Positions 21,977-43,931 of a stretch of DNA of 64,000 nt are shown one piece after another. The DNA comes from Escherichia coli. Lineage in GTDB: Bacteria; Pseudomonadota; Gammaproteobacteria; Enterobacterales; Enterobacteriaceae. The stretch lies in assembly GCA_902500125.1 (NCBI GenBank), contig GCA_902500125.1_4132.1. The stretch is one strand, 5' to 3'. The position numbers and the translations under genes are program-made. Numbering within the stretch: the stretch's first letter is position 1; every line of letters starts with the position of its first letter. Below the pieces are notes generated by a model. It had not been told where the DNA came from. It made no database searches and saw nothing but the letters and a program-made list of their open reading frames with translations.

Positions 21977-22434
21977 TTATGTTTAAGAATTTTATGGTTA
22001 TCGTAGCAGTACTGTTTGGTACATCATGTTTCATTTCCCCAGTACACGCAGAAGAACAACGTCAAACTATTAAAACTATTGGGACTGGTAAAACTCCCCC
22101 TAAACGTACTGCTGAAGAATACATGCCTGAAATGCGTGAACGTTATCGTCAGACATACAGGGAAAAACATGCTAATGATAAACCCATCAAGAAGCATAAA
22201 TGGGAAGTTGTTAAATCTCCTTCATTTTGTGCTGGATATGCTAAAGTAAAGATTGAGCAGCACAAAAAACAGTACTATAAAGATATGTATTCCTTCTATG
22301 ACTCCAGAATTTCTGACACAGATATGATGGCAGGGAAGGTTGATAAAGAAGAATTTCTACAAGGCTATGATATGATGGACGATGACAAAATCATGGAATG
22401 CGTTGAAGTGTATGAAAAATACAGAGGCTTCTGA
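21973..22434 (+). CDS. secreted/periplasmic hypothetical protein
   Basis: track ORF; signal-peptide-like N-terminus ending ..SPVHA-EEQ. Confidence 0.5.
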   Translation: MIMFKNFMVIVAVLFGTSCFISPVHAEEQRQTIKTIGTGKTPPKRTAEEYMPEMRERYRQTYREKHANDKPIKKHKWEVVKSPSFCAGYAKVKIEQHKKQYYKDMYSFYDSRISDTDMMAGKVDKEEFLQGYDMMDDDKIMECVEVYEKYRGF

Positions 22435-29272: not shown

Positions 29273-29551
29273 ATGTCTTTTTCTAAAGAAGAACGTGACC
29301 TTATTAAAAAAGCAATTTGGTTTTATGCTAATGAAGGGAAGTGCGATGAAGAAAAAGCACGTGAACTGTGTAATATCCTTGAGAAGAAACAAGAACTGAA
29401 AGTGTATCGTATCCGTGATTTGGATGAAGGGGATCGTATTGTCCTAGCTGAAACAAAAGAAGAAGCAGAACAAATCTTCACTGATAAAAACGAAAATCCA
29501 CATTGGATGGAAGAAGTCTGTGAAGTAAAAAAAGGTACTTATATCGATTGA
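29273..29551 (+). CDS. hypothetical protein
   Basis: track ORF 29258..29551 trimmed to ATG (MSFSKEE). Confidence 0.5.
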   Translation: MSFSKEERDLIKKAIWFYANEGKCDEEKARELCNILEKKQELKVYRIRDLDEGDRIVLAETKEEAEQIFTDKNENPHWMEEVCEVKKGTYID

Positions 29552-29669
29552 CTGTACTGAATAATAGCAGTATAATGTTTATATCAAAGGGAATGCAGTG
29601 AAAGGAAAGACAGCATAATCGTACTCGTCACTGCGTTTCCACCCTTTTAAATTAAATGAGGAATTAACT

Positions 29670-29978
29670 ATGTTTCAAACTAACACTCAAGGTTTTGTAA
29701 TCATCGATTTGAACCAAAACAGCGGTTATTGGATGAAACCTACTGACGCATGTATGCAGTTTGATTTTTTAGGTTACAGGATTAGTGTAAGTACTGGTGC
29801 TTCTGTACTGAGGGGTGGTTGTATCGTTGAACATCTGGTAACTGATCCAGAAGGTCGTGAGTATGAAATCGCAGGTTCAGTACAAGATGCCATTATGTTT
29901 GTATGTCAGCGTGAAATGAATAGTTCGAATTCAAATGCACTGACTCATGCTCTTTCTCAAGAAGTGGAGGTTCGTTAA
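29670..29978 (+). CDS. hypothetical protein
   Basis: track ORF; RBS GAGGAA. Confidence 0.55.
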   Translation: MFQTNTQGFVIIDLNQNSGYWMKPTDACMQFDFLGYRISVSTGASVLRGGCIVEHLVTDPEGREYEIAGSVQDAIMFVCQREMNSSNSNALTHALSQEVEVR

Positions 29979-30229
29979 TGAAATATATCGTAGCAGTACT
30001 CGTCGCATTTCTACTCACTGCATGTGATGCTTCTACCAAAGAACGTACAAGTGATTTTGTTCTACCTGCTGAATTAAAAGAAGCAGGGTGTAAGATTTAT
30101 CGTATGCAACAAGATGGTGCTGGTGCGACTTTGTACACTGTGTACTGTCCTAATGCAAACACCAGTACTGGATACACTAGCGGAAAAACACGAATCAACA
30201 CTTCAGTGATTAATGGAGTACAACAATGA
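29978..30229 (+). CDS. putative lipoprotein
   Basis: track ORF; signal peptide with lipobox LLTAC (MKYIVAVLVAFLLTAC|DAS). Confidence 0.6.
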   Translation: MKYIVAVLVAFLLTACDASTKERTSDFVLPAELKEAGCKIYRMQQDGAGATLYTVYCPNANTSTGYTSGKTRINTSVINGVQQ

Positions 30230-30594
30230 GCCTTGATACAACCCGTGCAACAGATTTATTCACTCGTCTGAATGATGAAGAATATCTTGCTGAAATAAAG
30301 TACAAGCTTGAAAAACTGGCTCGAAGTGCTGAAGTAATTGAAGTTAAAGGTCATTTACCAATGGATCAATTCCATACGTTCAAAGAAGATATGGTTTATT
30401 ATCCAAATGAAATTTGGATTGAGTGGGAACATTGGACTAACAAAACTCTACGCATTGAAGGTTATTGTGTGAATTATGAATCTGAACCTGGTGATGTTAC
30501 AAAAACTCTCTCCATTTGGTGTACAAAAACACATGAACTAGTTGAGGTGAATTTGAATTATATGAAAGGTTTCCGTTGGGGTGATATTCAATGA
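30226..30594 (+). CDS. hypothetical protein
   Basis: track ORF; ATGA overlap. Confidence 0.5.
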   Translation: MSLDTTRATDLFTRLNDEEYLAEIKYKLEKLARSAEVIEVKGHLPMDQFHTFKEDMVYYPNEIWIEWEHWTNKTLRIEGYCVNYESEPGDVTKTLSIWCTKTHELVEVNLNYMKGFRWGDIQ

Positions 30595-30866
30595 TTAAAA
30601 AACTATTGACAGTTGTCTTTGTATTCTGTACAATGTTTCTTACAGCATGTAATGATGACGGCAGGTTTAGTGCAAAAGACTTAGTTCGTCAGGATTGTAC
30701 ATTCACAGGTAAGTCTTTTATTAACGAGTATGAGGTATGTACACAATCAGGTCGTATCTGTGGTGGTTGGGAAAAACGACAGGAGCGATTGTATGTATAT
30801 GAATGCCCTGGACATCTCAACAAAGTACTAAGCACACACAAACTGGTTTATGATAAGGTTGAATAA
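30591..30866 (+). CDS. putative Cys-rich lipoprotein
   Basis: track ORF; signal peptide with lipobox FLTAC (MIKKLLTVVFVFCTMFLTAC|NDDG); 6 further Cys. Confidence 0.6.
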   Translation: MIKKLLTVVFVFCTMFLTACNDDGRFSAKDLVRQDCTFTGKSFINEYEVCTQSGRICGGWEKRQERLYVYECPGHLNKVLSTHKLVYDKVE

Positions 30867-31081
30867 TGACTACCAATGAAATGATGCAGGTTATTTGGGA
30901 TAAAGGTTGTGATATTAAAATCACTAGTACTGATGTTCGTGTATTCAAAACTGAATATATGGAGTACTTGGATCTTGATACTTATAATAATATTGTATCA
31001 ATCGAACACAAAGGTGCAGTACTGGAAACAATTGACGTAGTACTGAAGAAAGCTACCGACCTATTAGGAGCGGCAGTGTGA
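30866..31081 (+). CDS. hypothetical small protein
   Basis: track ORF. Confidence 0.5.
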   Translation: MTTNEMMQVIWDKGCDIKITSTDVRVFKTEYMEYLDLDTYNNIVSIEHKGAVLETIDVVLKKATDLLGAAV

Positions 31082-31234
31082 ATAACAAAGAGTGGGAAGA
31101 GTACCGTAAGAAGTGCAGGGAGTTTGATAAAGAACTAACTGGTACAGTGAATGCAGTAATGTGGGTATCTGTAATTATTGCAGTTCTTGCGTTGGGTGCT
31201 ATTATTATTAATAAATTATTCTAAGGCGAATATC

Positions 31235-31435
31235 ATGTTTACTTTATATCTCGCAGTAGTTCTCACCAATGGTGAAATCACTCGTACTATTGGTGAAGGT
31301 GTATATAAAACACCAGACCAGTGCTACTCTGCTACTCATTGGCCTCGCGATAGTGGGGATGAAACTCGCACTGAATTCAAATGCATGAAAGTAAAAGGTG
31401 ATTTTGTTAACCTTAAGGTTATCGAGGCGAAATAA
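31235..31435 (+). CDS. small secreted/membrane protein
   Basis: track ORF 31178..31435 trimmed to ATG after AAGGCGAA RBS; hydrophobic N-terminus. Confidence 0.45.
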   Translation: MFTLYLAVVLTNGEITRTIGEGVYKTPDQCYSATHWPRDSGDETRTEFKCMKVKGDFVNLKVIEAK

Positions 31436-31950
31436 TGGATATTAATGAGTTGTTGATCTTATTGTTTAATCGTGGAAATGATGTAAGACGTTCTGAATAT
31501 CAAGACAAAATTCACATTGAAACTGATAAATGTTATGGTAAAACAACTCATGAGATTTTGAAGCCAAATGGCAAACGATATGCCGATGTATGTTTTCATG
31601 AACGAAGTGATGGTAGTGAAATAATCAGTACTGAAATTGTGTTTTATGATAGATCCTCGGCAGGTTCGTATGAAATAGAACTTATATATTGTCCTGGTTC
31701 AGAAACACACAATAAACGTCAGATATTATATGATGTTTATTCACCTCCAGGTGTAGCTGAATATTTTGTTATTGATTACAGTACTGAAGAAAGTGTGTTT
31801 CAACAGAGCTTGATTCATAACTTCCAGTTGAATGATCCAAATGTACCAAAGTTGTTCAAACTACTCGATACTATCGATGTTGATTTTGAATTTGTTATGT
31901 GCATTAGAACTTCCTTGATCGATGAATTTATGGAACTACTTAATATATGA
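31435..31950 (+). CDS. hypothetical protein, EExFQxSTV-motif family
   Basis: track ORF; TEESVFQQSLIHNFQ motif. Confidence 0.55.
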   Translation: MDINELLILLFNRGNDVRRSEYQDKIHIETDKCYGKTTHEILKPNGKRYADVCFHERSDGSEIISTEIVFYDRSSAGSYEIELIYCPGSETHNKRQILYDVYSPPGVAEYFVIDYSTEESVFQQSLIHNFQLNDPNVPKLFKLLDTIDVDFEFVMCIRTSLIDEFMELLNI

Positions 31951-32168
31951 ATCGTTACTACATTGTGTATGAGCATGTATCTGAGTTTAATAATGTACGT
32001 GGTTATAAGAAAGAAGTACAGAAGATTGATGTATTTGTTCGTGCATTAAGTCCAACACATGCACTATTTAAATTGTTTGATGAAGTAACTAAGTACAACA
32101 CACCAAAAACACAACGCTATATTGAAACAGTACATAGTGTAATACTCACTGAATATGATGGAGAATGA
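31947..32168 (+). CDS. hypothetical small protein
   Basis: track ORF. Confidence 0.5.
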   Translation: MNRYYIVYEHVSEFNNVRGYKKEVQKIDVFVRALSPTHALFKLFDEVTKYNTPKTQRYIETVHSVILTEYDGE

Positions 32169-32171
32169 CAA

Positions 32172-32390
32172 ATGAATTTATATCTAGTTGAAGGGTCAGT
32201 ACAAGTATCCAAGCAAGACGGAGAAGGGTATCGTTTTTCACATGTAGAATATTTTAAGTACGTAGTAAAGGCCGATGGTCAGTACGACGCAGAAATTCAG
32301 GTTGAAGAATCATTCCGTAAGAAGAATGATATTGGTAAATTTGAATACCAAGACTTACAATTCACTGTATGGCCTAGCATTAATGACTAA
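32172..32390 (+). CDS. hypothetical small protein
   Basis: track ORF. Confidence 0.5.
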   Translation: MNLYLVEGSVQVSKQDGEGYRFSHVEYFKYVVKADGQYDAEIQVEESFRKKNDIGKFEYQDLQFTVWPSIND

Positions 32391-32629
32391 GATGTGGTGG
32401 TGTCATGGTGTCTACAATGTCTATGAATATGGTAGATTCAAAATGAGCAGCACCTATGCCAGACGTGTTAATGCGAAAAACCAAGTTGATGCTGCTTGTG
32501 AGATTGTAGAGTGGTATGCAGAGTTCAATGCAATTGATTTTATGTACGAAATAGTTACAATAAATGTTGTACAAATTGACACGTCTTTGATATAATAACT
32601 GTATCAAAACAACCGCAACTGAGGATACT

Positions 32630-33292
32630 ATGTTAGTTAATCTTAATTTCATCACTTCTCCTGATTGGGCATTGCGTGGTGTTTCTTTGAACTTTAAAGA
32701 AACTAATTTCGACTACATTGGTGATTGTACTTTAGTTAATGCTACATTTGATCCTCATCATCCTTTTTGGGCTGAAATTCATGATCCTAATGTAAACAAT
32801 AGTACATCTGTTATGACTATTGTACAGACGAAACATACAGGTATCCTCGCAGGTTACAGACCAGGACATGCGATTGAACACTTCACTGATTATGATGTAG
32901 TAGATGAGTATCCAATGATCCATGAAGATGGAAGTTTATACACGTCAGAAGACTTCCGTGCTATCTTTAATAGTACTGATGACATTCTACCAAGTGGTCG
33001 TCCACGCCCTGAGTCTTATCTTATGCACTCGTCTTATGGTGTAGCAGATACGCTTGAACAGATTTTGACGAAGTACAAGAACCTTATTGAAGGTCCTGAA
33101 GAAATTGTCATGTGCTATCATCCAGTACTGAAGTCTGACCAACCAGAGAGTGGTGGGTGGCGTTGGCATAAGAATGGTGAGTACATCGGTACTAAGCGTA
33201 GTAAAGAACGCTTTGAGTACTTGTATGATGAGCCAGATGTTGAGGTTGTTTTATGTTATAATTTTCTTAAGGTGAAAAAGAAATGTATCTAG
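32630..33292 (+). CDS. hypothetical protein (220 aa)
   Basis: track ORF; RBS GAGGATA. Confidence 0.55.
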   Translation: MLVNLNFITSPDWALRGVSLNFKETNFDYIGDCTLVNATFDPHHPFWAEIHDPNVNNSTSVMTIVQTKHTGILAGYRPGHAIEHFTDYDVVDEYPMIHEDGSLYTSEDFRAIFNSTDDILPSGRPRPESYLMHSSYGVADTLEQILTKYKNLIEGPEEIVMCYHPVLKSDQPESGGWRWHKNGEYIGTKRSKERFEYLYDEPDVEVVLCYNFLKVKKKCI

Positions 33293-33525
33293 TATTGAGT
33301 TTTGTAGTTGCATTATTGTTTATGTTCTACCCTACACTAGTAGCAGTAGCCACTAAACGAAAGCTGGTGGATATCACTACTGTATTCTTGCTAAACGTGG
33401 CACTCGTTCTAGTGTCTATTATCATTCCCGTGAGCTTTACGGTTATTGATATTATTTCGGTATTACTCTTCGTGTTAAGTTATCTTATGCTTATTGAAGA
33501 AACAAATGTTGACAAACGTTCGTAG
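33283..33525 (+). CDS. small membrane protein
   Basis: track ORF; hydrophobic throughout. Confidence 0.5.
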   Translation: MYLVLSFVVALLFMFYPTLVAVATKRKLVDITTVFLLNVALVLVSIIIPVSFTVIDIISVLLFVLSYLMLIEETNVDKRS

Positions 33526-33582
33526 TACTGTATAATGGTTCCTGTAGTCTGAAACTTAACACTTAAACTTGAGGTAAAAAAT

Positions 33583-33909
33583 ATGCTATCAGTACTAATT
33601 TCAATTCCGTCTTTAATTCTGATTTGGCTTCTGGTTTACGAATGCTTTATTACTGATGATAATGATAAAAAAGAGTTCTCTGAGTTGTTTATGCTTGATT
33701 CACCGATTGTGCGTATTTTCTATACAGTCGTTGTGGTTTCAGTAATTGTATGGGTTTTGAGTTTTATCTTCCCACTCGGTGCAGTAGTTAAAACTTTGGA
33801 TTTAGTTGAGAACTTTGTTGCAATTATGTGGCTAATCAAAGCACTATTTGCAGGAAATGTTAAAATTTGGATTGATATTATCAAATTCAAGTTCACGAAT
33901 AAGATGTAA
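33583..33909 (+). CDS. small membrane protein
   Basis: track ORF; RBS GAGGTAAAA; hydrophobic segments. Confidence 0.5.
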   Translation: MLSVLISIPSLILIWLLVYECFITDDNDKKEFSELFMLDSPIVRIFYTVVVVSVIVWVLSFIFPLGAVVKTLDLVENFVAIMWLIKALFAGNVKIWIDIIKFKFTNKM

Positions 33910-33987
33910 CAGTGAAAATATCTCTATAGTATTAAATACTTCTGTACATATATATAGTACAGAAGTATTTCTCGTTAGAGGTTTGTT

Positions 33988-34347
33988 ATGAAGAGTTATA
34001 TAAAATTAATAGCACTTGTGTGTGCATTATTTTCATGTTTTAGTTATGGTGCAGCAGCAGAAACATATTGTCGTAGTACTAAGGGAACGTGGCATGTATT
34101 GACTAACGACCCTAGAAATGGTAAAAATATAGTTGTTGATGGTGTGATTTATCGTTTTAAAGTAGCAAGTATTATCGGTAATAAAAAAATCTCGACTTAT
34201 AGAGATGATTCTGGTACATTAGCAAACGTAATATTAATTGTAGACCCAAGAACTGGTAATGGTGATATCTATATAGTAATTTACTTGGACTCATCGGTAC
34301 GCCGTGACCTAGATATAGATAAATTGAACTTACACTGTGAAATATAG
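33988..34347 (+). CDS. secreted hypothetical protein
   Basis: track ORF; signal-peptide-like N-terminus ..CFSYGAAA-ETY. Confidence 0.5.
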   Translation: MKSYIKLIALVCALFSCFSYGAAAETYCRSTKGTWHVLTNDPRNGKNIVVDGVIYRFKVASIIGNKKISTYRDDSGTLANVILIVDPRTGNGDIYIVIYLDSSVRRDLDIDKLNLHCEI

Positions 34348-34358
34348 GACTTAAAAAA

Positions 34359-34736
34359 ATGGTAAACACTATTTTACTTTTGTTGTTGAATATTCCAATT
34401 ATTCTGTCTTTTTTAATTTCTATTTTTATGGCAGGATATTGTTTAGTTGCAGTAATTCATTTCATTTTAACAAACAAATATGTCCTAATTTCTAAGCTTG
34501 ATTCTATTTTTGCTTGCGATTCGATTGCTTATAACTTGTGGTTAATTTGTTCTTGCATTATGGGAGTAACTTTCCTTCTGTATGTATTTGATGTCCTTGA
34601 CCAAAAGTTCGTATATATCAGTACTGGATTGGCTCTTTATCCTGCTACGTGGTACTTGATTTACGTTGGTGATATATGGTATAGTACTTATAAAGAATAT
34701 CAGTACAAGAAATCACTTAACGTTGGAGGAAAATAA
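34359..34736 (+). CDS. multi-pass membrane protein
   Basis: track ORF. Confidence 0.5.
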   Translation: MVNTILLLLLNIPIILSFLISIFMAGYCLVAVIHFILTNKYVLISKLDSIFACDSIAYNLWLICSCIMGVTFLLYVFDVLDQKFVYISTGLALYPATWYLIYVGDIWYSTYKEYQYKKSLNVGGK

Positions 34737-34738
34737 TC

Positions 34739-35089
34739 ATGAAAATTATTTTATTTTTTGTATGTATGTTAATGTGTGGATTGTCATATGCTGAACCATT
34801 GGAAGGTTTAGTTTGTACAGATGGTAATATTAAACATATCTATCAAGGTGATAGTGACGATCGAGATATTGTATATATTGATGGACAATCATATACGTTT
34901 GTTAAAGAGCATACAGTAGGCGACATTAGCTTCACTGAGTTTTCTAACGACACAGACCCTAACTTCTTAGCGTTTATTGAAGTAGATGTATATGAAGATA
35001 GTAATGGTACACAATATGCTAAATTAGTTATGATGCGTCGTGGTGCTAAAGAAACTAGTTTTGGTGGCTTGTGTAAATATAAGGATTGA
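34739..35089 (+). CDS. secreted hypothetical protein
   Basis: track ORF; signal-peptide-like N-terminus ..GLSYA-EPL. Confidence 0.5.
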   Translation: MKIILFFVCMLMCGLSYAEPLEGLVCTDGNIKHIYQGDSDDRDIVYIDGQSYTFVKEHTVGDISFTEFSNDTDPNFLAFIEVDVYEDSNGTQYAKLVMMRRGAKETSFGGLCKYKD

Positions 35090-35093
35090 TATT

Positions 35094-35285
35094 ATGTTGA
35101 TTTATCAAAGTGATAATATTCGTGTTATGCAGCATCCCTACTTACAAATCTTTGATGTGCAGCAGTATATGGAAGGTGATGACCCAAGAACCTATGGTCG
35201 TAAGTATGATTACTTCACTGTAAAGCAGTGTAATAATATTAACGAAGTACGACAATTAGTTCAAGAACTTCAAAACAAAGGTTGA
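35094..35285 (+). CDS. hypothetical small protein
   Basis: track ORF 35040..35285 trimmed to ATG after AAGGA RBS. Confidence 0.45.
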   Translation: MLIYQSDNIRVMQHPYLQIFDVQQYMEGDDPRTYGRKYDYFTVKQCNNINEVRQLVQELQNKG

Positions 35286-35310
35286 CTTCGGTCAGCCTTT
35301 TTTGTTATAA
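35280..35310 (+). terminator. terminator hairpin GGTTGACTTCGGTCAGCC plus T6, overlapping a promoter (TTGACT in stem, TATAAT 18 bp downstream)
   Basis: hairpin, T-run and hexamers read directly; module recurs 5 times in window. Confidence 0.6.
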
Positions 35311-35339
35311 TTCTCTTAATAAATTAGAGGATTTTAATT

Positions 35340-35780
35340 ATGTATGTATATCGTTTTGAACTTAAATTTAGTTACATTGAACCTAACTTAGATCCTGCAC
35401 GAACTGTAGGTCCGTTTGCACGGTATTCAACCAGATACAGTACTAAAAATGGATTTGACCGTTTGCTTATGACTACACCTTCTCAATTCCAACCTGAACC
35501 AACTGAGGATGGGATCTATTCAATCAAAAGTGGATGGGTATTTGGCTGTCAAAGTTTGAAAGATTTGTTCAGATTCTTCACTATGGACTTAGGTAAATTG
35601 CATCGTGCTGGGTTTGCTATATCTGTATATGAAGTTCCAGACCACCATGTAGACATTGGTCGTAATCAGGTTCAGTACTATTGCGGTAGTGCTAAATTAG
35701 TTCGTATCATGTCAGTTAAGGAAGCAAAGGATGAGTTCCGACAAAGTAAAAGAGAAACACATGAGGTAATATATGGATAA
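35340..35780 (+). CDS. hypothetical protein
   Basis: track ORF; RBS GAGGA. Confidence 0.55.
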   Translation: MYVYRFELKFSYIEPNLDPARTVGPFARYSTRYSTKNGFDRLLMTTPSQFQPEPTEDGIYSIKSGWVFGCQSLKDLFRFFTMDLGKLHRAGFAISVYEVPDHHVDIGRNQVQYYCGSAKLVRIMSVKEAKDEFRQSKRETHEVIYG

Positions 35781-36117
35781 AACTCAAATAGAATTAAAGA
35801 AATTTGTTTCATTCTATCTTCCTGATGACCCACGTAATTCACAAAAAGATATTGAATATTATAATATCCTATCTAAACAGTTAATGAGAAAGTTTCAACA
35901 GTGTTTAACTATATTCAATACAGATGGAAGACGTAGATACCGAATCGTTTCAATGAATGATGAAAACGCAAATTTCTTTGATTACGATGTAGTTTTTAGA
36001 GCATATAATGATGATCGTATAAAATTAAATTATGATCAAATTATACTTGACCTGAATGTTATATGTGTTATAATCACTCACGTAGCCGAACTTAATGGTT
36101 TTAAAGAATGGTATTGA
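35773..36117 (+). CDS. hypothetical protein
   Basis: track ORF. Confidence 0.5.
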   Translation: MDKTQIELKKFVSFYLPDDPRNSQKDIEYYNILSKQLMRKFQQCLTIFNTDGRRRYRIVSMNDENANFFDYDVVFRAYNDDRIKLNYDQIILDLNVICVIITHVAELNGFKEWY

Positions 36118-36131
36118 ATAGAGGATAACAT

Positions 36132-36398
36132 ATGAAGCTTAAATTACAATATAATGGATTTACTTTACGTAATGATACTGAATTTATTAATCGTTCTCCT
36201 GGTGCTGAACTGTTTTTACGAGAGATGAACATTCCTTTCATCATTACTACAGTGGGCGACCGTGAAGTTCTACAATATGCAGAGCATCCGATTATTGATG
36301 TTCCTTGGTACTCTGAGCATATGTACATGGATATGGCACGTCGCTACAACTGTAAGTTCGTAGTTGAAGGTGATAAAATTACAGTCGAATTTAAATAA
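36132..36398 (+). CDS. hypothetical protein
   Basis: track ORF; RBS GAGGATAA. Confidence 0.55.
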   Translation: MKLKLQYNGFTLRNDTEFINRSPGAELFLREMNIPFIITTVGDREVLQYAEHPIIDVPWYSEHMYMDMARRYNCKFVVEGDKITVEFK

Positions 36399-36409
36399 GG
36401 TAAATTAAA

Positions 36410-36703
36410 ATGATCAGTACTTCAGTTAATGAAAGCATCGTCGCTGACGTAGAAATGGTTAAAGAATGTGCAGATGAAACTCTTCGTGATATGTACATTA
36501 ATGATTTAATTACTGAATACGGTAGTCGTGGTGTACACGAATTTATTCGTTTAAGTGGAGAGTTGATGAAAAATCGAATTCGTATGAAGCTTAACGTACA
36601 TCCAAAAGCATGGGCATTTACATTAAAATACGCAGAAGATATTGTGAATTTGCGTCGAACTGAAGTATATGAACGTTTACACAATGGTATGTTAGATAAA
36701 TGA
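36410..36703 (+). CDS. hypothetical protein
   Basis: track ORF. Confidence 0.5.
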   Translation: MISTSVNESIVADVEMVKECADETLRDMYINDLITEYGSRGVHEFIRLSGELMKNRIRMKLNVHPKAWAFTLKYAEDIVNLRRTEVYERLHNGMLDK

Positions 36704-36755
36704 TTGTAAAATAGGAATTCTTAAATGAATTCCTTTTTGTTTATAAGGTATAGTA

Positions 36756-36977
36756 ATGAAATATATAGTACTTGTACTGATATTATTCAGTACTGTTGTA
36801 AGTGCTAAACAAAAAGAATATATTAAATGTATAAATTATGAAGAGAAATATGTTGAAACATATAAAAAAAGTATAATTAAAAACGTTTCGATTACTAACA
36901 GAGCAACAATCATTGTACTTAAAAATGGGTTAATTATGCTATATAAACCACACGTTAAATGTGAAATTATTAATTGA
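36756..36977 (+). CDS. small secreted protein
   Basis: track ORF; signal-peptide-like N-terminus ..TVVSA-KQK. Confidence 0.5.
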   Translation: MKYIVLVLILFSTVVSAKQKEYIKCINYEEKYVETYKKSIIKNVSITNRATIIVLKNGLIMLYKPHVKCEIIN

Positions 36978-36984
36978 GGAAATT

Positions 36985-37557
36985 ATGAATCGTAAAGGTC
37001 GTTTTAAAGTATCAAAAAAGAACAAAAGTTCTAGGTTTAAACCTATTGTTTTAACAGTTAAATCTAACAAAGATTTAACTGCACTTAGTAAAAAGATAAT
37101 TTCATCTAAGATTGAAGTATCATACGTAAATTCATTAAAATATATGAATGTCAAACCACTGGACCAACTCATTTCACTTATATTTGAACGTAATGATTTT
37201 GAGATATCAGTAGATGATTATAGAGCCTATAATGCTGGTTTCATTAATGTTACTTGTAATAAAAAACTAACTGAGTTGGAAAATTTGTCATGTATAATAA
37301 ATCTAGATAAAGGTGTTGTGAAGTACCATTTTGTACATTTCACTAATATCAATAATGGAATGGGTGTACAATCCAGACCTATAGTGCCTACGTGTGATGT
37401 TACTAAATTAGCAAAGCTCAATGATGAAGAATATTTTCAAGAAAGCATTGTAACTGAGCATTTAGATGATATAATAGCTACTTACAAAGAATGCATATGG
37501 GTGTTGAATGCTATAAAACCTAAATTGTGTTTAATGAATATTGTTCGTGATTTATGA
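36985..37557 (+). CDS. hypothetical protein, EExFQxSTV-motif family
   Basis: track ORF 36961..37557 trimmed to ATG after GAGGAAA; NDEEYFQESIVTEH motif. Confidence 0.55.
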   Translation: MNRKGRFKVSKKNKSSRFKPIVLTVKSNKDLTALSKKIISSKIEVSYVNSLKYMNVKPLDQLISLIFERNDFEISVDDYRAYNAGFINVTCNKKLTELENLSCIINLDKGVVKYHFVHFTNINNGMGVQSRPIVPTCDVTKLAKLNDEEYFQESIVTEHLDDIIATYKECIWVLNAIKPKLCLMNIVRDL

Positions 37558-37570
37558 ATGGGGAATCGTA

Positions 37571-38014
37571 ATGAGTTGGGTAAATGTTAATAGTATTGAA
37601 CTTAACGAACAAGATATTTTTGCATTTGTAAATTTAACTAATAACACAGTACTAAAAGGGCGTTTGTTCAGTGCGAGTGATGGATATAAATGGATCTCTT
37701 TGATGGATGATAGTGGTGTGATTTATAATGTAATGCAATTACCCCAATGGGTATATAGTAACACTGCCGACGATGTTCTTGCCGCAGTTATGCGTGAGTT
37801 TGAAAAACTCCCAGGTGGTGATATCAAAAACAAAGTTTTTAATGCAGAACGGAAAAATTATACAGCACAGCAGTTGGAATCCCTTGCCATTGCTGCTTAT
37901 CAAGCTGCTATTAAGAAGCCAGAGTGCGTTATTCTTAAGTATGTACCAGACTTAAAACTTACGTTGGAAGACATGGATGCATTCATTTTTACATCTGAAC
38001 TTGATCAGTACTAA
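37571..38014 (+). CDS. hypothetical protein
   Basis: track ORF 37541..38014 trimmed to ATG (MSWVNVN). Confidence 0.5.
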   Translation: MSWVNVNSIELNEQDIFAFVNLTNNTVLKGRLFSASDGYKWISLMDDSGVIYNVMQLPQWVYSNTADDVLAAVMREFEKLPGGDIKNKVFNAERKNYTAQQLESLAIAAYQAAIKKPECVILKYVPDLKLTLEDMDAFIFTSELDQY

Positions 38015-38129
38015 TTTAACTTTGGGACAACCATTCTTATTATGATATAATGTTTTATGTCATTCGATATAAATGACAACGGAACTATAAATATTATAGT
38101 AAAATTTATCTCTTATAGGAGTTATAAAA

Positions 38130-38513
38130 ATGGTTGGTAAATGGAATAAGAAAGATCCATCACATGATGTTGATATTTCTGGTCTAGACAATGCACATAA
38201 GCACAAGTATCTAGATTCACTAGGTCTTCTAAAACCAGACCAAAGTCTTGCACATGATCGTCCATCCCGTGAAAAAGCATTTAGCCTAGAATCACTAGGC
38301 CATGAGCTTAATCGTGTGTTTGAGGATCACCCAATCTATGTACGTGATATTATCGAGAAACTTAAAGTAACTCCTAAAGAGCACTTTAAAGCAACTGTAC
38401 ACTCTGCATTCCGTGCATTACATGAATCTCTAAAGAAAACTCACAATCTTCGTAAAATTCATGATGAAATCGTGAATGCAATCGAAAGTGAAAAACATAA
38501 GTTCAAGAAGTAA
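38130..38513 (+). CDS. hypothetical protein (paralogous to N-terminal region of 39859..41118)
   Basis: track ORF; shared YLDSLGLL / IIEKLKVTPKE motifs with 39859 ORF. Confidence 0.55.
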   Translation: MVGKWNKKDPSHDVDISGLDNAHKHKYLDSLGLLKPDQSLAHDRPSREKAFSLESLGHELNRVFEDHPIYVRDIIEKLKVTPKEHFKATVHSAFRALHESLKKTHNLRKIHDEIVNAIESEKHKFKK

Positions 38514-38520
38514 TAAAAAT

Positions 38521-38553
38521 GGTTGACTAAGGTCAGCCCTTTGTTGTATCATA
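38521..38553 (+). terminator. terminator/promoter module (GGTTGACTAAGGTCAGCC variant)
   Basis: hairpin plus T-rich tail; -10-like TATCAT 18 bp after TTGACT. Confidence 0.5.
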
Positions 38554-38703
38554 ACTTCTCAATATAACTGAGGTATCATATATGCAAGGTTTGAAATTTG
38601 TAGTTGCTGCCCTAATCGCTGCTGTTGTAGTGGGTACAGTATGTTATTCAATTGACACCTATATCAATACACCTAGTGTTGAACAAACCAAATAAGGGAT
38701 ATC

Positions 38704-38967
38704 ATGGCTGAAACATTATCACTATATGCGTTAGTACTGTTATTTGTCGGATTTCTTCCCGCACTCATTACAGCCATTCGTGTTGTTAAACATGAAGCTG
38801 CATTGATTGTATGTAGTATTGGGTCGAACATTCTATTGTATTTCTTTTTGACAAATACTATTGTACTGTTTGCTTTCTTTATCATGATTCTGTGGGTACT
38901 TGTAATTCTCGGATTCTTCATTTGGTCATTGGTTGATCCTAAGAAAAAATCAGGAGAAGTGAAATGA
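38704..38967 (+). CDS. multi-pass small membrane protein
   Basis: track ORF. Confidence 0.5.
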   Translation: MAETLSLYALVLLFVGFLPALITAIRVVKHEAALIVCSIGSNILLYFFLTNTIVLFAFFIMILWVLVILGFFIWSLVDPKKKSGEVK

Positions 38968-39260
38968 AATTAATTATAGCAATGATAATGTGTTTGGCTT
39001 TCCCTGTACTGGCTACTCCTAATCTGGACTGCACACTGTTGCGTTCAGATGGTGACACACTTGAAATCAACACATATGAACTCTTTGGTCCAAGTGTAGT
39101 GGAGAATGAAACCACCTACAATTTCAAAGCTATTGACTTTGAAGGTAATGTTCCAGTACTAACTACAATGACTATTGACAAAACTACTTTACTCGGACGA
39201 ATCACCACACAACGCGGAGAAAGTAAAACATTCACAGCGAAAGCTGACTGTAACTACTAA
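38964..39260 (+). CDS. small secreted protein
   Basis: track ORF; signal-peptide-like N-terminus ..FPVLA-TPN. Confidence 0.5.
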   Translation: MKLIIAMIMCLAFPVLATPNLDCTLLRSDGDTLEINTYELFGPSVVENETTYNFKAIDFEGNVPVLTTMTIDKTTLLGRITTQRGESKTFTAKADCNY

Positions 39261-39282: not shown

Positions 39283-39312
39283 GGTTGACTTCGGTCAACC
39301 TTTATATATAAT
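39283..39312 (+). terminator. terminator/promoter module (GGTTGACTTCGGTCAACC)
   Basis: hairpin with TTGACT in stem; TATAAT 16 bp downstream. Confidence 0.55.
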
Positions 39313-39883
39313 GGAAGAAATAAACATGGAACGTTGGAAATTAATTCCTGATTATGACTATTCAATTTCTGATCATGGAAGAGTAAGAAACGAACAAACT
39401 GGATATATAAGTTGTGGATTTAAAAATAAAGATGGGTATGTGAAGGTCGATTTGTATCGCAATTCTGTGAAAAATAGAAAGGCGATTCATCGACTAGTAG
39501 CTGAAGCATTTTTACCACCACCCACACAGAAACAGTTACAGTGGGCGAGTAGAACAAAGAAAAAAGTTGTTCACATAAACCATAAAGATTGTAATAGAAG
39601 TAACAATCACTATTTGAATTTGGAATGGAACACAGCATCTGAAAACGTACTATATTCTTATTCACATGGTAACGCAACAACTAATCGTGGTGCTGCTGTG
39701 TTGACATGGGAAATTGTAAGAGAAATAAGAAAAGATTATAATGATAATTATAATGATGTGATAGAATATGCACGAGAAAATTGTAATAAATACCGTGTAT
39801 GTAAAAAAAACAATACGTCGTATTTTATACAATCAAACATGGATAGAGGATTAAAAATATGCCACAAGATAATGGGGATATGA
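39311..39883 (+). CDS. HNH homing endonuclease-like protein
   Basis: track ORF; N-terminal W..IPDYDYSISDHGRVRN and AIHRLVAEAF motifs typical of phage HNH/NUMOD-type endonucleases (recall-based). Confidence 0.55.
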   Translation: MEEINMERWKLIPDYDYSISDHGRVRNEQTGYISCGFKNKDGYVKVDLYRNSVKNRKAIHRLVAEAFLPPPTQKQLQWASRTKKKVVHINHKDCNRSNNHYLNLEWNTASENVLYSYSHGNATTNRGAAVLTWEIVREIRKDYNDNYNDVIEYARENCNKYRVCKKNNTSYFIQSNMDRGLKICHKIMGI

Positions 39884-41118
39884 AACATCGTAATGGTGGA
39901 CTAGTACAACACTCGGATAAATGGGCCGACCGAAATCGTCGCAAAAATAGTTATCAAGCAGGACAAGGTTCACGTGGTTCCAGAAACCAAGGAACGGGAC
40001 TTGCTGGTAAGGCAAACGCAGAAGCAGGTGAAGTTAAGAGTACTGAGAACATGACTGAGCTAGAAAAGCTACGTTATGTTAATTCATTGGGACTTCTTAA
40101 TGCTACACAAAAACAACGTCTAGCTGATATGGAACGTGAAGAAAAAGAAAAGTCTGCTCCTGCGAAAGAAGAACCAAAACAAGAAGCACCAAAGGCGGTT
40201 AACCCTGTCAAAGAACTGTCTGATAAGTTAGGTAAGATTTTTGCTAATAAACCACAACTTATCCAAGGTATTGTGAAAGAATTGCAATCTGTACCTAAAG
40301 AAGAATTAAAAGTCAAAGCACAAGCTGTACTTGATGCAATGAGTGGAAATACCAGTACTGAACCAACTGAAGTATTCAGTACTATAATGCGTGCACTTGA
40401 AGGTACGCAACAAGGTGATGTGCCTGCACAAGAGGAAGTAAGTCTTGAAAGCGTACTTAAAACATTTGATAGTATTGGTAAAGAAGACCGTGCTAATGCT
40501 CAACAAGTTAAGAATGTACTAGCTAAGTTAGAAAACCGTCTGGAAGGTAAAGACGATAAGATTAAATTAGTATCTGATGCAGTTAACGATGCACTTAAAT
40601 CTTATGTACAAGGTGAAAAGAGTCGTTTTGTAACTGCAATGGATGCTGCATTCAATACTATGAAAAAGTATGAAGCTGATCATGGTGAGAAGGTTACACG
40701 AGATGGTTATCTGATGCGTGATGATGAAGAAGGTGCAGTAGAACAGAATGATGTTCATTCAGACGAAGAAATTGATGACATGGAAGCTGAACTGTCACAA
40801 GACCGCCAAATGACTGAAAAATCCCATAACGAACTACAGAAATTAATGCAATGGGTTGCAGATGTTGGTGAAAAAGCTGGTGCTGATAAGAAGAGTATAA
40901 ACCGAAATCTTAGTTGGATTAAAGATAAAGTTGGTAACAACGCTCGTAAACTACAAAAAGCGTGGACTGATGTAGTGAATGGTGCTGTTGACATTGATGT
41001 TGAATCCGGTGAGGCATATGATTATGCATTGACTACACTTGATGACTCTTTCCGTGATTACGAAAATGGAAATGTAACTCCTTGGGAAAAGGATATCATG
41101 AGCAAATACGGTAAATGA
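39859..41118 (+). CDS. hypothetical charged protein (419 aa)
   Basis: track ORF; Gly/Ser/Arg-rich N-terminus then K/E-rich region; paralogous segment to 38130 ORF. Confidence 0.6.
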   Translation: MPQDNGDMKHRNGGLVQHSDKWADRNRRKNSYQAGQGSRGSRNQGTGLAGKANAEAGEVKSTENMTELEKLRYVNSLGLLNATQKQRLADMEREEKEKSAPAKEEPKQEAPKAVNPVKELSDKLGKIFANKPQLIQGIVKELQSVPKEELKVKAQAVLDAMSGNTSTEPTEVFSTIMRALEGTQQGDVPAQEEVSLESVLKTFDSIGKEDRANAQQVKNVLAKLENRLEGKDDKIKLVSDAVNDALKSYVQGEKSRFVTAMDAAFNTMKKYEADHGEKVTRDGYLMRDDEEGAVEQNDVHSDEEIDDMEAELSQDRQMTEKSHNELQKLMQWVADVGEKAGADKKSINRNLSWIKDKVGNNARKLQKAWTDVVNGAVDIDVESGEAYDYALTTLDDSFRDYENGNVTPWEKDIMSKYGK

Positions 41119-41127
41119 TAAAACAAA

Positions 41128-41158
41128 AGGTTGACTTCGGTCAGCCTTTTTTGTTATG
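41128..41158 (+). terminator. terminator/promoter module (GGTTGACTTCGGTCAGCC plus T6)
   Basis: identical hairpin to 35280 copy; TATGAT 18 bp after TTGACT. Confidence 0.6.
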
Positions 41159-41188
41159 ATGTTGGTATTAACTACAGAGGATAAAGTA

Positions 41189-42175: not shown

Positions 42176-42514
42176 ATGGAACAATATTTTGAATTAATAA
42201 ACAAAGTATCATTTTATGTAGTATCTTTGGTTTGGGTGTATTATATGTTTTGCTATATTATTGCATTCTTCCGATATACTACTTTATATGAACGTATCTA
42301 CTATGATGCCCCAATTTCATTCTTGATGTTTTGTGCATGTACGTGGGGAATATTAGAAGTACTGATATGTGGGTATAGTACTGATGAATTAAATCTGGTA
42401 TCGGTGTTGACTGGGTTTTCATTTGTTGTTATGATAGCTGCCGTTCCAGTATGGTTGTTCTTTGGACTAGTTCATCGCATTGATATATGGCGTTCTAATA
42501 TCCCTGAAAAGTAA
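42176..42514 (+). CDS. 3-TM small membrane protein, paralog family A
   Basis: track ORF; 3 hydrophobic helices; C-terminal basic tail ..RSNIPEK. Confidence 0.55.
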   Translation: MEQYFELINKVSFYVVSLVWVYYMFCYIIAFFRYTTLYERIYYDAPISFLMFCACTWGILEVLICGYSTDELNLVSVLTGFSFVVMIAAVPVWLFFGLVHRIDIWRSNIPEK

Positions 42515-42517
42515 GGA

Positions 42518-42865
42518 TTGGAAATGATTTATTACACTAACATGTTTGCCTATGCTGTTGCTTGCATTTACATTGTTTACTTCTTATTCGGTGGAGTACT
42601 GTGCTTCTTTAAGTACAAAACGTTGTTCAACCGAATGTACCCAAATCATCCAATTGTAGTTGTACTTTTGATTCTTTCAGTTTCTCAAATAATCGTTGAA
42701 ACTACAATGGGTATCAGTAGTGTACATTATAGTTTTGGCACTATAGTAATTATTACTATGCTTATTGCATACATTTTAGTACTTGGATATGGTATCTTTG
42801 GTAATATTGGTATGAAAATGTATCATCGAATTAAAACATTACGTGATAATCTACCGGAGCGTTGA
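42518..42865 (+). CDS. 3-TM small membrane protein, paralog family A
   Basis: track ORF; C-terminal ..LRDNLPER. Confidence 0.55.
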   Translation: MEMIYYTNMFAYAVACIYIVYFLFGGVLCFFKYKTLFNRMYPNHPIVVVLLILSVSQIIVETTMGISSVHYSFGTIVIITMLIAYILVLGYGIFGNIGMKMYHRIKTLRDNLPER

Positions 42866-42866
42866 T

Positions 42867-43211
42867 ATGTATAATTTGAACCTAATCTCATATATTATAA
42901 CAACACTGTTTACATTCTATGCCTTTGTTGGTATAATCCTACTGTACTTTAAATTTTATAAAGTGTTTAACCGTTTCTATCCTTCAATGGAGAATGAGTT
43001 TTTCTTTGTGTTGTACGTAGGTTACACATTAATGGCTACATGTTTCACTGTAGCCGATGGTGTCATCGGCATTAAAACTGATTCCCCAAATGGTAGTACG
43101 CTGGTTGCATTTATTCTTACTGGATTCCTTGCAACTTATATTGCCTTCATTACAACATGGTCAGTGGTTGAATTTCTCTTGCGACTACGAAAGAATATGC
43201 CGAATCGATAG
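42867..43211 (+). CDS. 3-TM small membrane protein, paralog family A
   Basis: track ORF 42843..43211 trimmed to ATG (MYNLNL); C-terminal ..LRKNMPNR. Confidence 0.55.
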   Translation: MYNLNLISYIITTLFTFYAFVGIILLYFKFYKVFNRFYPSMENEFFFVLYVGYTLMATCFTVADGVIGIKTDSPNGSTLVAFILTGFLATYIAFITTWSVVEFLLRLRKNMPNR

Positions 43212-43220
43212 GAGACATAT

Positions 43221-43475
43221 ATGTTTGCGTTGCGTAATAAAAACACTAAAGAATTATTATGTATTGATACCGTATGGGATTGTGCGGGATCAACTACAGT
43301 TCTTGAAGAAGGAACTGGATATTGCGTGTTTGTTGTTCATGATAGGAATGAACTCGAATTATTACTTGCTGAGTTCAATGCTGGTGGTAATCCTAACAGT
43401 ACTGAATACCCTGAGATTATCAATCCAGCACCACCAGGCTCTTATGAAATTCTACAACTGTGGGAGTTGAAGTAA
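43221..43475 (+). CDS. hypothetical small protein
   Basis: track ORF; RBS AGGAGA. Confidence 0.55.
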   Translation: MFALRNKNTKELLCIDTVWDCAGSTTVLEEGTGYCVFVVHDRNELELLLAEFNAGGNPNSTEYPEIINPAPPGSYEILQLWELK

Positions 43476-43855: not shown

Positions 43856-43857
43856 GT

Positions 43858-43885: not shown

Positions 43886-43931
43886 CTTATCAAGGGGATG
43901 AACTTCTCATCCCTACAATCGAGGAACTACC

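What the first reader, a model, noticed from the sequence alone, without database searches (positions are those of the whole stretch)
29978..39260. Lipobox lipoproteins and several signal-peptide proteins: candidate superinfection-exclusion factors
29978..30229 and 30591..30866 have classical lipoprotein signal peptides ending L-T-A-C followed by Cys-rich mature parts. ORFs at 21973, 33988, 34739, 36756 and 38964 have cleavable-looking signal peptides. Phage-encoded lipoproteins are known to mask receptors for superinfection exclusion (T5 Llp is the classic case); that role here is inference only.
Basis: partly seen in the sequence, partly recalled or inferred. Interest (0 to 1): 0.45.

Follow-up and report, generated by a model that had tools for sequence, protein, structure and literature searches.

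The report
Early exported proteins of a jumbo phage
A giant E. coli phage encodes two real lipoproteins and several small secreted proteins among its early genes; none is related to the known receptor-blocking lipoproteins Llp or Cor, and the two lipoproteins probably sit on the inner membrane, so any protection against a second infection would need a different mechanism.

Summary
29978-30229 and 30591-30866 encode lipoproteins with L-T-A-C lipoboxes. ORFs at 21973/21979, 33988, 34739, 36756 and 38964 have canonical cleavable signal peptides.

The window is an Asteriusvirus jumbo phage (about 95% identical to PBECO4/121Q). These genes lie in a + strand array with 27 near-consensus sigma-70 promoters (about 2.8 expected, none on the - strand), so early expression is likely.

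Lipoprotein 1 belongs to a large, phage-only, uncharacterised family (phrog_902; 276 clusters at 50% identity; 577 phage records). The family has two invariant cysteines and a predicted fold with no known match. Lipoprotein 2 is restricted to the jumbo-phage clade.

Neither is a Cor/Llp homologue. Family models that recognise authentic Cor and Llp reject both, and the weak "Cor" hit behind some GenBank labels is a signal-peptide artefact. Neither is the spanin, and the annotated secreted proteins were not found in a related phage's virions.

Lipoprotein 1 has Asp at +2 and lipoprotein 2 has Asn-Asp, which points to inner-membrane retention. No outer-membrane protein receptor is known for this group. 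Llp-style receptor jamming is therefore disfavoured.

Superinfection exclusion at a periplasmic or inner-membrane step remains plausible but untested. The secreted and membrane-protein genes are the most divergent genes in the region, and PeSL-like terminator/promoter modules lie in and around it, one at the right edge of a cassette that is present in only some relatives.

The parts
29548..29576 (+). Near-consensus sigma-70 promoter (TTGACT-17-TATAAT) upstream of the operon 29670 -> lipoprotein 1 -> 30226 -> lipoprotein 2
   Evidence: one of 27 sites with at least 11/12 matches on the + strand (0 on the - strand; about 2.8 expected)
29670..29978 (+). 102-aa ORF without a signal peptide; its stop overlaps the lipoprotein 1 start (TAATG), so it is probably co-transcribed
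29978..30229 (+). Lipoprotein 1 (83 aa): lipobox LTAC, +2 Asp, two invariant Cys (C38, C57); member of phage family phrog_902
30226..30594 (+). 122-aa cytoplasmic ORF (phrog_22236, function unknown); its start and stop overlap both lipoprotein genes (ATGA)
30591..30866 (+). Lipoprotein 2 (91 aa): lipobox LTAC, +2/+3 Asn-Asp, 4 further Cys (2 invariant); family restricted to the jumbo-phage clade (phrog_31263)
21979..22434 (+). Secreted protein (cleavage VHA|EE); charged mature part with 2 Cys; phrog_36332, function unknown.
33283..33909 (+). Two small multi-pass membrane proteins (33283-33525, 33583-33909) at the head of the variable envelope block
33988..34347 (+). Secreted protein with 2 Cys (mature positions 4 and 93 of 95); 61% identical to its vB_Ec-M-J counterpart
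34359..34736 (+). Small membrane protein between the two secreted proteins; the most divergent gene of the region (42% identity)
34739..35089 (+). Secreted protein with 2 Cys (mature positions 8 and 94 of 98); cleavage SYA|EP; not detected in phAPEC6 virions
35280..35311 (+). PeSL-like composite terminator hairpin and early promoter
36756..36977 (+). Secreted protein (73 aa) with 2 Cys (mature positions 8 and 52 of 56); cleavage VSA|KQ; 46% identical to its vB_Ec-M-J counterpart
38521..38552 (+). PeSL-like terminator/promoter module upstream of the 38582-39260 cassette
38582..38695 (+). 37-aa single-pass membrane protein (phrog_35037)
38704..38967 (+). 87-aa 3-TM protein. It is labelled 'immunity to superinfection' in vB_Ec-M-J, but the label is unsupported (PHROG 1039 E=4.9; no Pfam Imm_superinfect hit)
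38964..39260 (+). Secreted protein with 2 Cys (mature positions 6 and 79 of 81); cleavage VLA|TP. Together with 38704 it forms a cassette absent from PBECO4, phAPEC6 and CRJP21
39283..39312 (+). PeSL-like module at the right border of the variable cassette

Best explanation
This stretch is part of the early accessory gene array of an Asteriusvirus jumbo phage, probably transcribed by host RNA polymerase, and it encodes a set of small envelope-directed proteins.

Shown: lipoproteins 1 and 2 are real, conserved lipobox proteins. Lipoprotein 1 belongs to a large phage-only family with a pair of invariant cysteines that the model places at the base of a beta-hairpin. Neither lipoprotein is related to Llp/Cor or to the phage's spanins. 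At least four further ORFs encode small secreted proteins, each with one Cys near each end of the mature chain. The genes for these secreted proteins and their membrane-protein neighbours are the most divergent in the region, and one membrane/secreted pair is present in only some relatives.

Inferred: after Sec export and lipidation, the Asp (lipoprotein 1) and Asn-Asp (lipoprotein 2) that follow the lipid Cys keep both proteins on the periplasmic face of the inner membrane. From there, early in infection, they would bind a conserved envelope component and protect the infected cell from a second attack, for example by blocking genome passage across the periplasm or inner membrane, or by blocking tail-associated cell-wall hydrolases. 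That would be exclusion after adsorption, functionally like T4 Imm/Sp or plasmid entry-exclusion lipoproteins, and not Llp-style jamming of an outer-membrane receptor. The secreted 2-Cys proteins and their membrane partners would be faster-evolving members of the same envelope-directed repertoire.
For: Lipobox and signal peptides. Source phage. Likely early expression: 27 vs 0 near-consensus sigma-70 promoters on the + vs - strand against about 2.8 expected, one directly upstream of the operon; the lipoprotein genes overlap their neighbours' start and stop codons. Family size and conservation: 276 clusters at 50% identity, invariant C38 and C57, lipobox Cys in more than 90%; 577 phage records across Felixounavirus, Vequintavirinae, T4-like, T5-like and jumbo phages. 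Purifying selection. Conservation across phages of different host genera argues for a conserved target rather than a phage-specific receptor. Asp at +2 in Asteriusvirus, EJP2, the A7_1/UPEC06 group and CR9, and acidic or Asn +2 in every lipoprotein 2 relative; the +2 Asp rule for Enterobacteriaceae is from PMC6469965. Not virion proteins. Not spanins. The five most divergent of 30 syntenic genes are all envelope-directed, and cassette 38704-39260 is present or absent among relatives, as expected for competition-related accessory genes.
Against: There is no functional evidence and no homology to any characterised exclusion protein. The +2 residue varies across the lipoprotein 1 family (D 24%, S 22%, E 15%, T 12%), and Felixounavirus Mushroom has Asn, so inner-membrane anchoring is not universal. 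Asp-Ala and Asn-Asp are not the strongest Lol-avoidance combinations. Early expression is inferred from promoter consensus alone. The lipoprotein 1 model is of moderate confidence (pLDDT 76) and the lipoprotein 2 model is unusable (pLDDT 40). Lipoproteins 1 and 2 themselves are not fast-evolving (93% and 99% identity to vB_Ec-M-J).
Confidence: 0.3

Rival explanations
1. [quoted passage not shown]
For: They are small phage lipoproteins, probably expressed early, with disulfide-forming cysteines, like Llp. Two GenBank records label the homologues 'Cor superinfection exclusion protein' or 'lytic conversion lipoprotein'. There is a weak phrog_1119 hit at E=0.008. Sequence methods also fail to link Cor with Llp in a direct profile comparison, so distant relatedness cannot be fully excluded.
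Against: The phrog_1119 hit disappears when the signal peptide is removed, while authentic Cor and Llp score 2e-37 and 1e-19. NCBIfam's Cor model rejects both lipoproteins. hhalign to Cor aligns only the signal peptide. No fold match to Llp or anything else. The Cys pair is internal, not joining the N- and C-terminal regions as in Llp and Cor. The +2 residue is Asp or Asn, versus Ser in Llp and Ala in Cor. The gene is not beside an RBP gene, even in T5-like Vibrio phages. Reported or suggested receptors in this group are LPS and flagella (PMC10213699, PMC11895373).
Confidence: 0.1
2. Envelope takeover unrelated to exclusion: the exported proteins inhibit or redirect host periplasmic or membrane functions for the phage's own cycle. 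Examples are inhibition of periplasmic nucleases, proteases or cell-wall enzymes, damping of envelope-stress signalling, control of lysis timing, or neutralising a membrane-associated host defence.
For: About 30% of ORFs in the early array are membrane or exported proteins, more than exclusion alone would seem to need. The lipoprotein 1 family is conserved across phages with different receptors and hosts, which fits a conserved host target. In other phages it sits inside DNA-metabolism early blocks. It matches no known exclusion protein.
Against: This is a collection of sub-hypotheses, none with specific support. There is no similarity to known lysozyme inhibitors, antiholins or other periplasmic inhibitors in Pfam, NCBIfam, PDB or fold searches.
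Confidence: 0.35
3. Lysis proteins: one or both lipoproteins are o-spanins (Rz1-like) that fuse the membranes at lysis.
For: Most small phage lipoproteins in Gram-negative hosts are o-spanins. Two lipoprotein 1 family members gave weak Pfam LysC (Rz1-like) hits at E about 0.04.
Against: The spanin census places the 121Q i- and o-spanins at 245,337-246,017 (genes 511/512), about 150 kb from the lipoprotein 1 and 2 homologues at 93.4-94.3 kb, and the o-spanin sequence is unrelated. The neighbouring genes lack the TM domain of an i-spanin. Neither lipoprotein has the C-terminal TM of a unimolecular spanin. Asp at +2 does not fit an outer-membrane protein. The genes lie in a probable early region.
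Confidence: 0.02
4. Virion components: the signal-peptide proteins are structural, as some records annotate.
For: CRJP21 labels the 34739 and 35340 homologues 'structural protein'.
Against: phAPEC6 virion mass spectrometry detected only gp035c and gp037c from this stretch, not gp040c or gp047c, the 36756 and 34739 homologues. Sec-exported proteins would be separated from cytoplasmic virion assembly. Caveat: lipoprotein 1, lipoprotein 2 and 33988 are not annotated in phAPEC6, so they may not have been searchable in the MS data.
Confidence: 0.03

Closest known systems
T5 Llp and prophage/T1 Cor exclusion lipoproteins (phrog_1119; NCBIfam NF047972 for Cor)
   Same: Small phage-encoded lipoproteins (about 60-70 aa mature) with a classical lipobox, beta-rich, disulfide-containing and probably expressed early; encoded by a virulent phage, like Llp.
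   Different: No sequence or fold relationship in the mature domain. The Cys pair is internal, whereas Llp's C11-C58 disulfide joins the two ends of the chain. The +2 residue is Asp or Asn, predicting the inner membrane, versus Ser or Ala for the outer membrane. The genes are not adjacent to a receptor-binding protein gene. No TonB-dependent transporter receptor is known for this phage group.
T4 Imm and Sp (spackle): post-adsorption exclusion in a virulent myovirus
   Same: Early, envelope-located small proteins of a large virulent myovirus that act after adsorption (Imm blocks DNA entry, Sp blocks peptidoglycan digestion, as summarised in 10.64898/2026.03.26.714494). This is the functional model I favour.
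   Different: This is an analogy only. There is no homology: no Pfam Imm_superinfect hit for any window protein. Imm is an integral membrane protein and Sp a soluble periplasmic protein (my own knowledge), not lipoproteins.
Plasmid entry-exclusion lipoproteins (TrbK of RP4, EexN)
   Same: Small lipoproteins that block incoming DNA. To my knowledge TrbK acts at the cytoplasmic membrane, which matches the predicted location here.
   Different: The only similarity is a sub-threshold NCBIfam TrbK hit (E=0.019, 14.9 bits against a cutoff of 23), mostly over the signal peptide. It is not evidence of homology.
o-spanins (Rz1 family)
   Same: Small phage lipoproteins containing Cys.
   Different: The phage has a separate spanin pair about 150 kb away. 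There is no adjacent i-spanin, the region is probably early, and the +2 residue is Asp.
PeSLs (promoter-early stem-loops) of T4-like phages (PMC2839356, PMC4122927)
   Same: A composite terminator hairpin plus early sigma-70 promoter, repeated five times in the window, with one copy at the right border of a present/absent gene cassette.
   Different: Found here in an Asteriusvirus jumbo phage rather than a T4-like phage. I did not look for an earlier description in this group. Recombination at these sites is inferred from a single cassette boundary.

Membership tests
Llp/Cor exclusion lipoproteins | Lipoprotein signal peptide with lipobox | tested here: met
   L-T-A-C lipobox in both proteins, conserved in relatives.
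Llp/Cor exclusion lipoproteins | Match of the mature domain to the family model | tested here: not met
   phrog_1119 scores HK022 Cor 2.4e-37 and T5 Llp 1.1e-19, but mature lipoproteins 1 and 2 give no hit at E<=0.1. NF047972 hits Cor at 4e-41 and neither window protein. hhalign aligns only the signal peptide; mature-only probabilities are 0.1-2.5%.
Llp/Cor exclusion lipoproteins | Disulfide joining the N-terminal region to the extreme C-terminus (Llp C11-C58; Cor PVC...TTC at the C-terminus) | tested here: not met
   Lipoprotein 1 has Cys at mature positions 23 and 42 of 68. Lipoprotein 2's invariant Cys are at 17 and 53 of 72. Llp data.
Llp/Cor exclusion lipoproteins | Outer-membrane sorting (non-Asp +2 residue) | tested here: not met
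   Lipoprotein 1 is C-D-A and lipoprotein 2 is C-N-D (relatives C-D-D, C-D-E, C-E-P), versus Llp C-S-T and Cor C-A-G. Prediction only; rule from PMC6469965.
Llp/Cor exclusion lipoproteins | Llp-like fold (PDB 7QJF) | tested here: inconclusive
Llp/Cor exclusion lipoproteins | Gene beside the receptor-binding or tail-fibre genes | tested here: not met
   In the window both genes are flanked by small ORFs with no assigned function; homologues in Mushroom and in a T5-like Vibrio phage lie in DNA-metabolism blocks.
Llp/Cor exclusion lipoproteins | Expression confers resistance to the cognate phage by inactivating its receptor | not testable with these tools
   Needs plating and adsorption assays.
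phrog_902 phage lipoprotein family (function unknown) | HMM match plus the conserved core (LP-x-EL...C-x-x-Y...V-x-CPN-x-x-T...GK) | tested here: met
   1.4e-13 for the full protein and 5.3e-7 for the mature part. 276 HMMER cluster hits. Invariant C38 and C57; P30, P58 and K70 in at least 90%.
o-spanin (Rz1-like) | Paired with an adjacent, overlapping or embedded i-spanin gene in the lysis cassette | tested here: not met
   Neighbouring genes lack a TM domain. The 121Q spanin pair is at 245.3-246.0 kb and its sequence is unrelated.
T4 Imm (Pfam PF14373 Imm_superinfect), for 38704-38967 | Match to the family model | tested here: not met
   No PF14373 hit at E<=10; PHROG 1039 E=4.9. A different vB_Ec-M-J gene that is absent from the window scores only E=0.014, below the cutoff.
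PeSL composite terminator/promoter modules | GC-rich stem-loop plus T-run fused to an early sigma-70 promoter, repeated, at borders of variable cassettes | tested here: met
   5 copies on the + strand against 0.03 expected. The aligned module is hairpin, T-run, TATAAT, SD, ATG. The right border of the 38704-39260 indel lies at a copy.

The most novel reading that the evidence does not exclude
The lipoprotein 1 family (phrog_902) is a previously unrecognised, widespread class of periplasmic exclusion or entry-blocking lipoproteins of virulent phages of Gammaproteobacteria. It would be anchored to the inner membrane in enterobacteria, have a fold with no known match, and act on a conserved envelope component needed for genome delivery by many unrelated phages. 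It would then confer broad, receptor-independent protection of the infected cell. The four secreted proteins with one Cys near each end would be unlipidated relatives of the Llp architecture.
Probability: 0.15. Interest if true: 0.65.

Novelty: new variant of a known kind. Interest (0 to 1): 0.35.

Why it matters
Post-adsorption superinfection exclusion is understood in only a few model phages. A conserved family of small lipoproteins, probably early-expressed, is shared by Felix O1-like, rV5-like, T4-like, T5-like and jumbo phages, and it cannot work the way Llp does. That makes it a tractable lead to a shared envelope vulnerability or a shared host-takeover step. There is also a practical result: the 'Cor', 'lytic conversion lipoprotein' and 'immunity to superinfection' labels now in GenBank for these genes rest on signal-peptide or weak hydrophobic matches and should not be propagated. 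If the genes do exclude other phages, that would matter when designing therapeutic cocktails that include Asteriusviruses.

Tried and rejected
1. Cor/Llp homology. Rejected using positive controls and profile-profile alignments with and without signal peptides. The direct Cor-vs-Llp control also failed in hhalign, so I relied on phrog_1119, which does unite them.

2. Spanin role. Rejected from the spanin census supplement and the gene context.

3. Virion role. Not supported by the phAPEC6 proteome.

4. Paralogy of lipoproteins 1 and 2. hhalign gave 69% with signal peptides but only 5% on mature sequences, limited to a 12-column 'LYxVxCP' patch. Unresolved, so not claimed.

5. Paralogy among the four secreted 2-Cys proteins. 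Only marginal (z 2.6-3.3). A 38964-vs-Llp score of z=3.2 is not significant after 28 comparisons.

6. Pfam, NCBIfam and PDB sequence searches for every candidate returned nothing above threshold. The precomputed Pfam tag PF16225 on lipoprotein 1 relatives was not reproduced by my own scan.

7. Lipoprotein 2 structure. 

8. The fEgEco12 genome paper says nothing about its 'lytic conversion lipoprotein' labels.

9. Literature searches for this lipoprotein family or for inner-membrane phage lipoproteins found nothing relevant.

Full report
**Source and setting.** The window is about 95% identical over this stretch to Escherichia phages PBECO4 and 121Q and to other Asteriusvirus jumbo phages of about 350 kb. 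It has 30-38% G+C. From about 1 to 50 kb it is packed with small ORFs on the + strand.

That strand carries 27 sigma-70 promoter matches with at least 11 of 12 consensus positions. The - strand carries none, and a first-order Markov model predicts about 2.8 per strand. I take this as good, though indirect, evidence that the array is transcribed early by host RNA polymerase. One such promoter (29548-29576) lies directly upstream of a run of four genes whose start and stop codons overlap: 29670-29978, lipoprotein 1, 30226-30594 and lipoprotein 2.

**Checking the observation.** They read MKYIVAVLVAFLLTAC|DAST... and MIKKLLTVVFVFCTMFLTAC|NDDG....

- The lipobox Cys is conserved in more than 90% of 92 diverse relatives of lipoprotein 1 and in all nine relatives of lipoprotein 2.
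- Both genes are under purifying selection, with dN/dS of 0.07-0.08 and 0.06-0.24.
- The five further ORFs have textbook Sec signal peptides with -3/-1 cleavage sites.
- 21973 more likely starts at the ATG at 21979.
- The list is incomplete: roughly 38 of 122 + strand ORFs in 1-50.5 kb have an N-terminal hydrophobic or transmembrane segment, including a run of 3-TM proteins at 42-49 kb.

**What lipoprotein 1 is.** An exhaustive HMMER search finds 276 clusters (at 50% identity) of relatives. tblastn finds the gene in 577 phage records: Felixounavirus, Vequintavirinae, Erwinia and Yersinia jumbo phages, Acinetobacter phages and many T5-like Vibrio phages. Structure hits add T4-like Aeromonas phage Aeh1.

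Every named member is a phage 'hypothetical protein' or 'Lipoprotein' on a phage-sized contig. The family corresponds to phrog_902, function unknown. It has no Pfam or NCBIfam model.

**What lipoprotein 2 is.** It is confined to Asteriusvirus and neighbouring jumbo phages (Munch, 7t3, fENko-Kae01, EJP2, JNE01). It has its own conserved pattern: AK.L...C..TG..F...YVY.C. A relationship to lipoprotein 1 is hinted at (69% hhalign probability) but drops to 5% once signal peptides are removed, so I do not claim it. In EJP2 the two genes lie about 29 genes apart, so they are not an obligate pair.

**Are they Llp or Cor?** Two GenBank records say so: 'Cor superinfection exclusion protein' in vB_Ec-M-J and 'lytic conversion lipoprotein' in fEgEco12. 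I tested this with positive controls.

- phrog_1119 recognises HK022 Cor (2.4e-37) and T5 Llp (1.1e-19) over their full length. Full-length lipoprotein 1 scores only E=0.008 over residues 1-48, and its mature part gives no hit at all while still hitting phrog_902 at 5e-7.
- NCBIfam's Cor model behaves the same way.
- Profile-profile alignments of both families to a 26-sequence Cor profile cover only the 17-19 signal-peptide columns.
- Llp and Cor have a disulfide tying the N-terminal region to the extreme C-terminus, and Ser or Ala at +2. Lipoproteins 1 and 2 have internal Cys pairs and Asp or Asn at +2.
- The homologues are not next to receptor-binding protein genes, even in T5-like Vibrio phages, where the gene sits among ligase, primase and nucleotide-metabolism genes.

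Membership is therefore rejected, and the database labels look like signal-peptide artefacts. In the same way, the 'immunity to superinfection' label on the 38704-38967 homologue rests on a PHROG match of E=4.9.

**Other known roles.** The spanin census places the 121Q i- and o-spanins about 150 kb from these genes, with an unrelated sequence. Neither lipoprotein has an i-spanin neighbour or a C-terminal TM domain. The phAPEC6 virion proteome contains only the homologues of 38130-38513 and 39859-41118 from this stretch.

**Where the lipoproteins probably sit.** In Enterobacteriaceae, Asp at +2 is the inner-membrane retention signal (PMC6469965). Lipoprotein 1 has C-D-A. Its homologues in EJP2, the A7_1/UPEC06 group and CR9 have C-D-R, C-D-Q and C-D-N, and only Felixounavirus Mushroom has C-N-P. 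Every lipoprotein 2 relative has Asn, Asp or Glu at +2. Across the whole lipoprotein 1 family the position varies: D 24%, S 22%, E 15%, T 12%. The prediction therefore applies to the enterobacterial phages and needs testing.

**Mechanism.** An inner-membrane-anchored domain of about 67 residues cannot reach the outer membrane. EJP2 uses the LPS outer core (PMC10213699), and the close relative SHEFM2K is suggested to use flagella (PMC11895373). The family is also conserved at 30-55% identity across phages with different receptors and host genera, which implies a conserved target.

[quoted passage not shown] My best guess for its purpose (confidence 0.3) is post-adsorption protection of the infected cell: blocking incoming genomes or tail-associated muralytic activity, functionally like T4 Imm/Sp. 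A group of non-exclusion envelope-takeover roles is collectively about as likely (0.35). Llp-type receptor jamming is unlikely (0.1).

**The secreted proteins.** 33988, 34739, 36756 and 38964 each have exactly two cysteines, one 4-8 residues from the mature N-terminus and one 2-5 residues from the C-terminus. That is the same end-to-end arrangement as Llp's disulfide, though sequence similarity among them and to Llp is marginal. They alternate with small membrane proteins.

In a gene-by-gene comparison with vB_Ec-M-J, the five most divergent of 30 syntenic genes are all envelope-directed: 34359 (42%), 36756 (46%), 33583 (58%), 33988 (61%) and 34739 (78%). Most cytoplasmic neighbours are 87-100% identical (one-sided Mann-Whitney p=0.037). 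The terminal cysteines are kept in every variant.

The 38704-39260 pair (a 3-TM protein plus a secreted protein) is present in this phage and the vB_Ec-M-J group but absent from PBECO4, phAPEC6 and CRJP21. Fast divergence and presence/absence of this kind are typical of genes involved in competition or host interaction, but they do not identify the function.

**Seen in passing.** Five copies of a conserved module occur on the + strand, against 0.03 expected: an A-rich tract, the hairpin GGTTGAC-NNNN-GTCARCC, a T-run, TATAAT, SD and ATG. They match the composite terminator/promoter 'PeSLs' that mediate cassette shuffling in T4-like phages (PMC2839356, PMC4122927). One copy forms the right border of the variable cassette. 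An ORF present only in this window (39311-39883) is inserted immediately after it.

**Verdict.** It is not supported in its specific Llp analogy. The most useful outputs are the definition of a large uncharacterised phage lipoprotein family with a probable inner-membrane location, and the correction of misleading database labels. Interest is moderate (0.35).

Noticed in passing
window 1-46000, + strand: 27 sigma-70 promoter matches with at least 11 of 12 consensus positions on the + strand and none on the - strand (about 2.8 expected per strand), 26 of them within 1-46 kb. The small-ORF array looks like a host-RNAP early region.
   Followed up: partly
window 35280-35311, 38521-38552, 39283-39312, 41129-41160, 46042-46073: Five copies of a PeSL-like composite terminator/promoter module: hairpin GGTTGAC-NNNN-GTCARCC whose 5' arm is the -35 box, then a T-run, TATAAT, SD and ATG. 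0.03 copies are expected by chance. The same elements occur in relatives.
   Followed up: partly
window 38704-39260 and 39311-39883: The pair of a 3-TM protein and a secreted protein is present only in a subset of Asteriusviruses (vB_Ec-M-J group) and absent from PBECO4, phAPEC6 and CRJP21. The 190-aa ORF at 39311-39883 has no counterpart in the three relatives compared and sits directly after a PeSL; it may be a homing-endonuclease-type insertion, but I did not test that.
   Followed up: partly
window 33583-35089 and 36756-36977: Hypervariable block: these membrane and secreted-protein genes are 42-78% identical to their vB_Ec-M-J counterparts, while several neighbouring genes are 92-100% identical.
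   Followed up: yes
window 42176-49381: A run of similar-sized (about 104-141 aa) predicted 3-TM proteins (42176, 42518, 46942, 47280, 47962, 48583, 49010), possibly a paralogous membrane-protein family.
   Followed up: no
L012 (phAPEC6 MK817115) 880-1126, 1496-1766, 4814-5261: The phAPEC6 annotation has gaps exactly where the lipoprotein 1, lipoprotein 2 and 33988 homologues lie. These genes are unannotated there, so they may not have been searchable in its virion mass-spectrometry data.
   Followed up: no
window 31235-31435: A 66-aa ORF with a hydrophobic N-terminus and two Cys gives a sub-threshold Pfam DUF1482 hit (E=0.0018).
   Followed up: no
window about 50000: GC skew changes sign near 50 kb, and the ORF-dense + strand array of 1-50 kb ends there.
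   Followed up: no
L001 (vB_Ec-M-J OQ718158) 8457-8693: vB_Ec-M-J carries an extra 78-aa membrane protein that is absent from the window. It has weak Imm_superinfect similarity (Pfam E=0.014, below the cutoff; PHROG 1039 E=0.02) and is inserted next to the 36756 homologue.
   Followed up: partly
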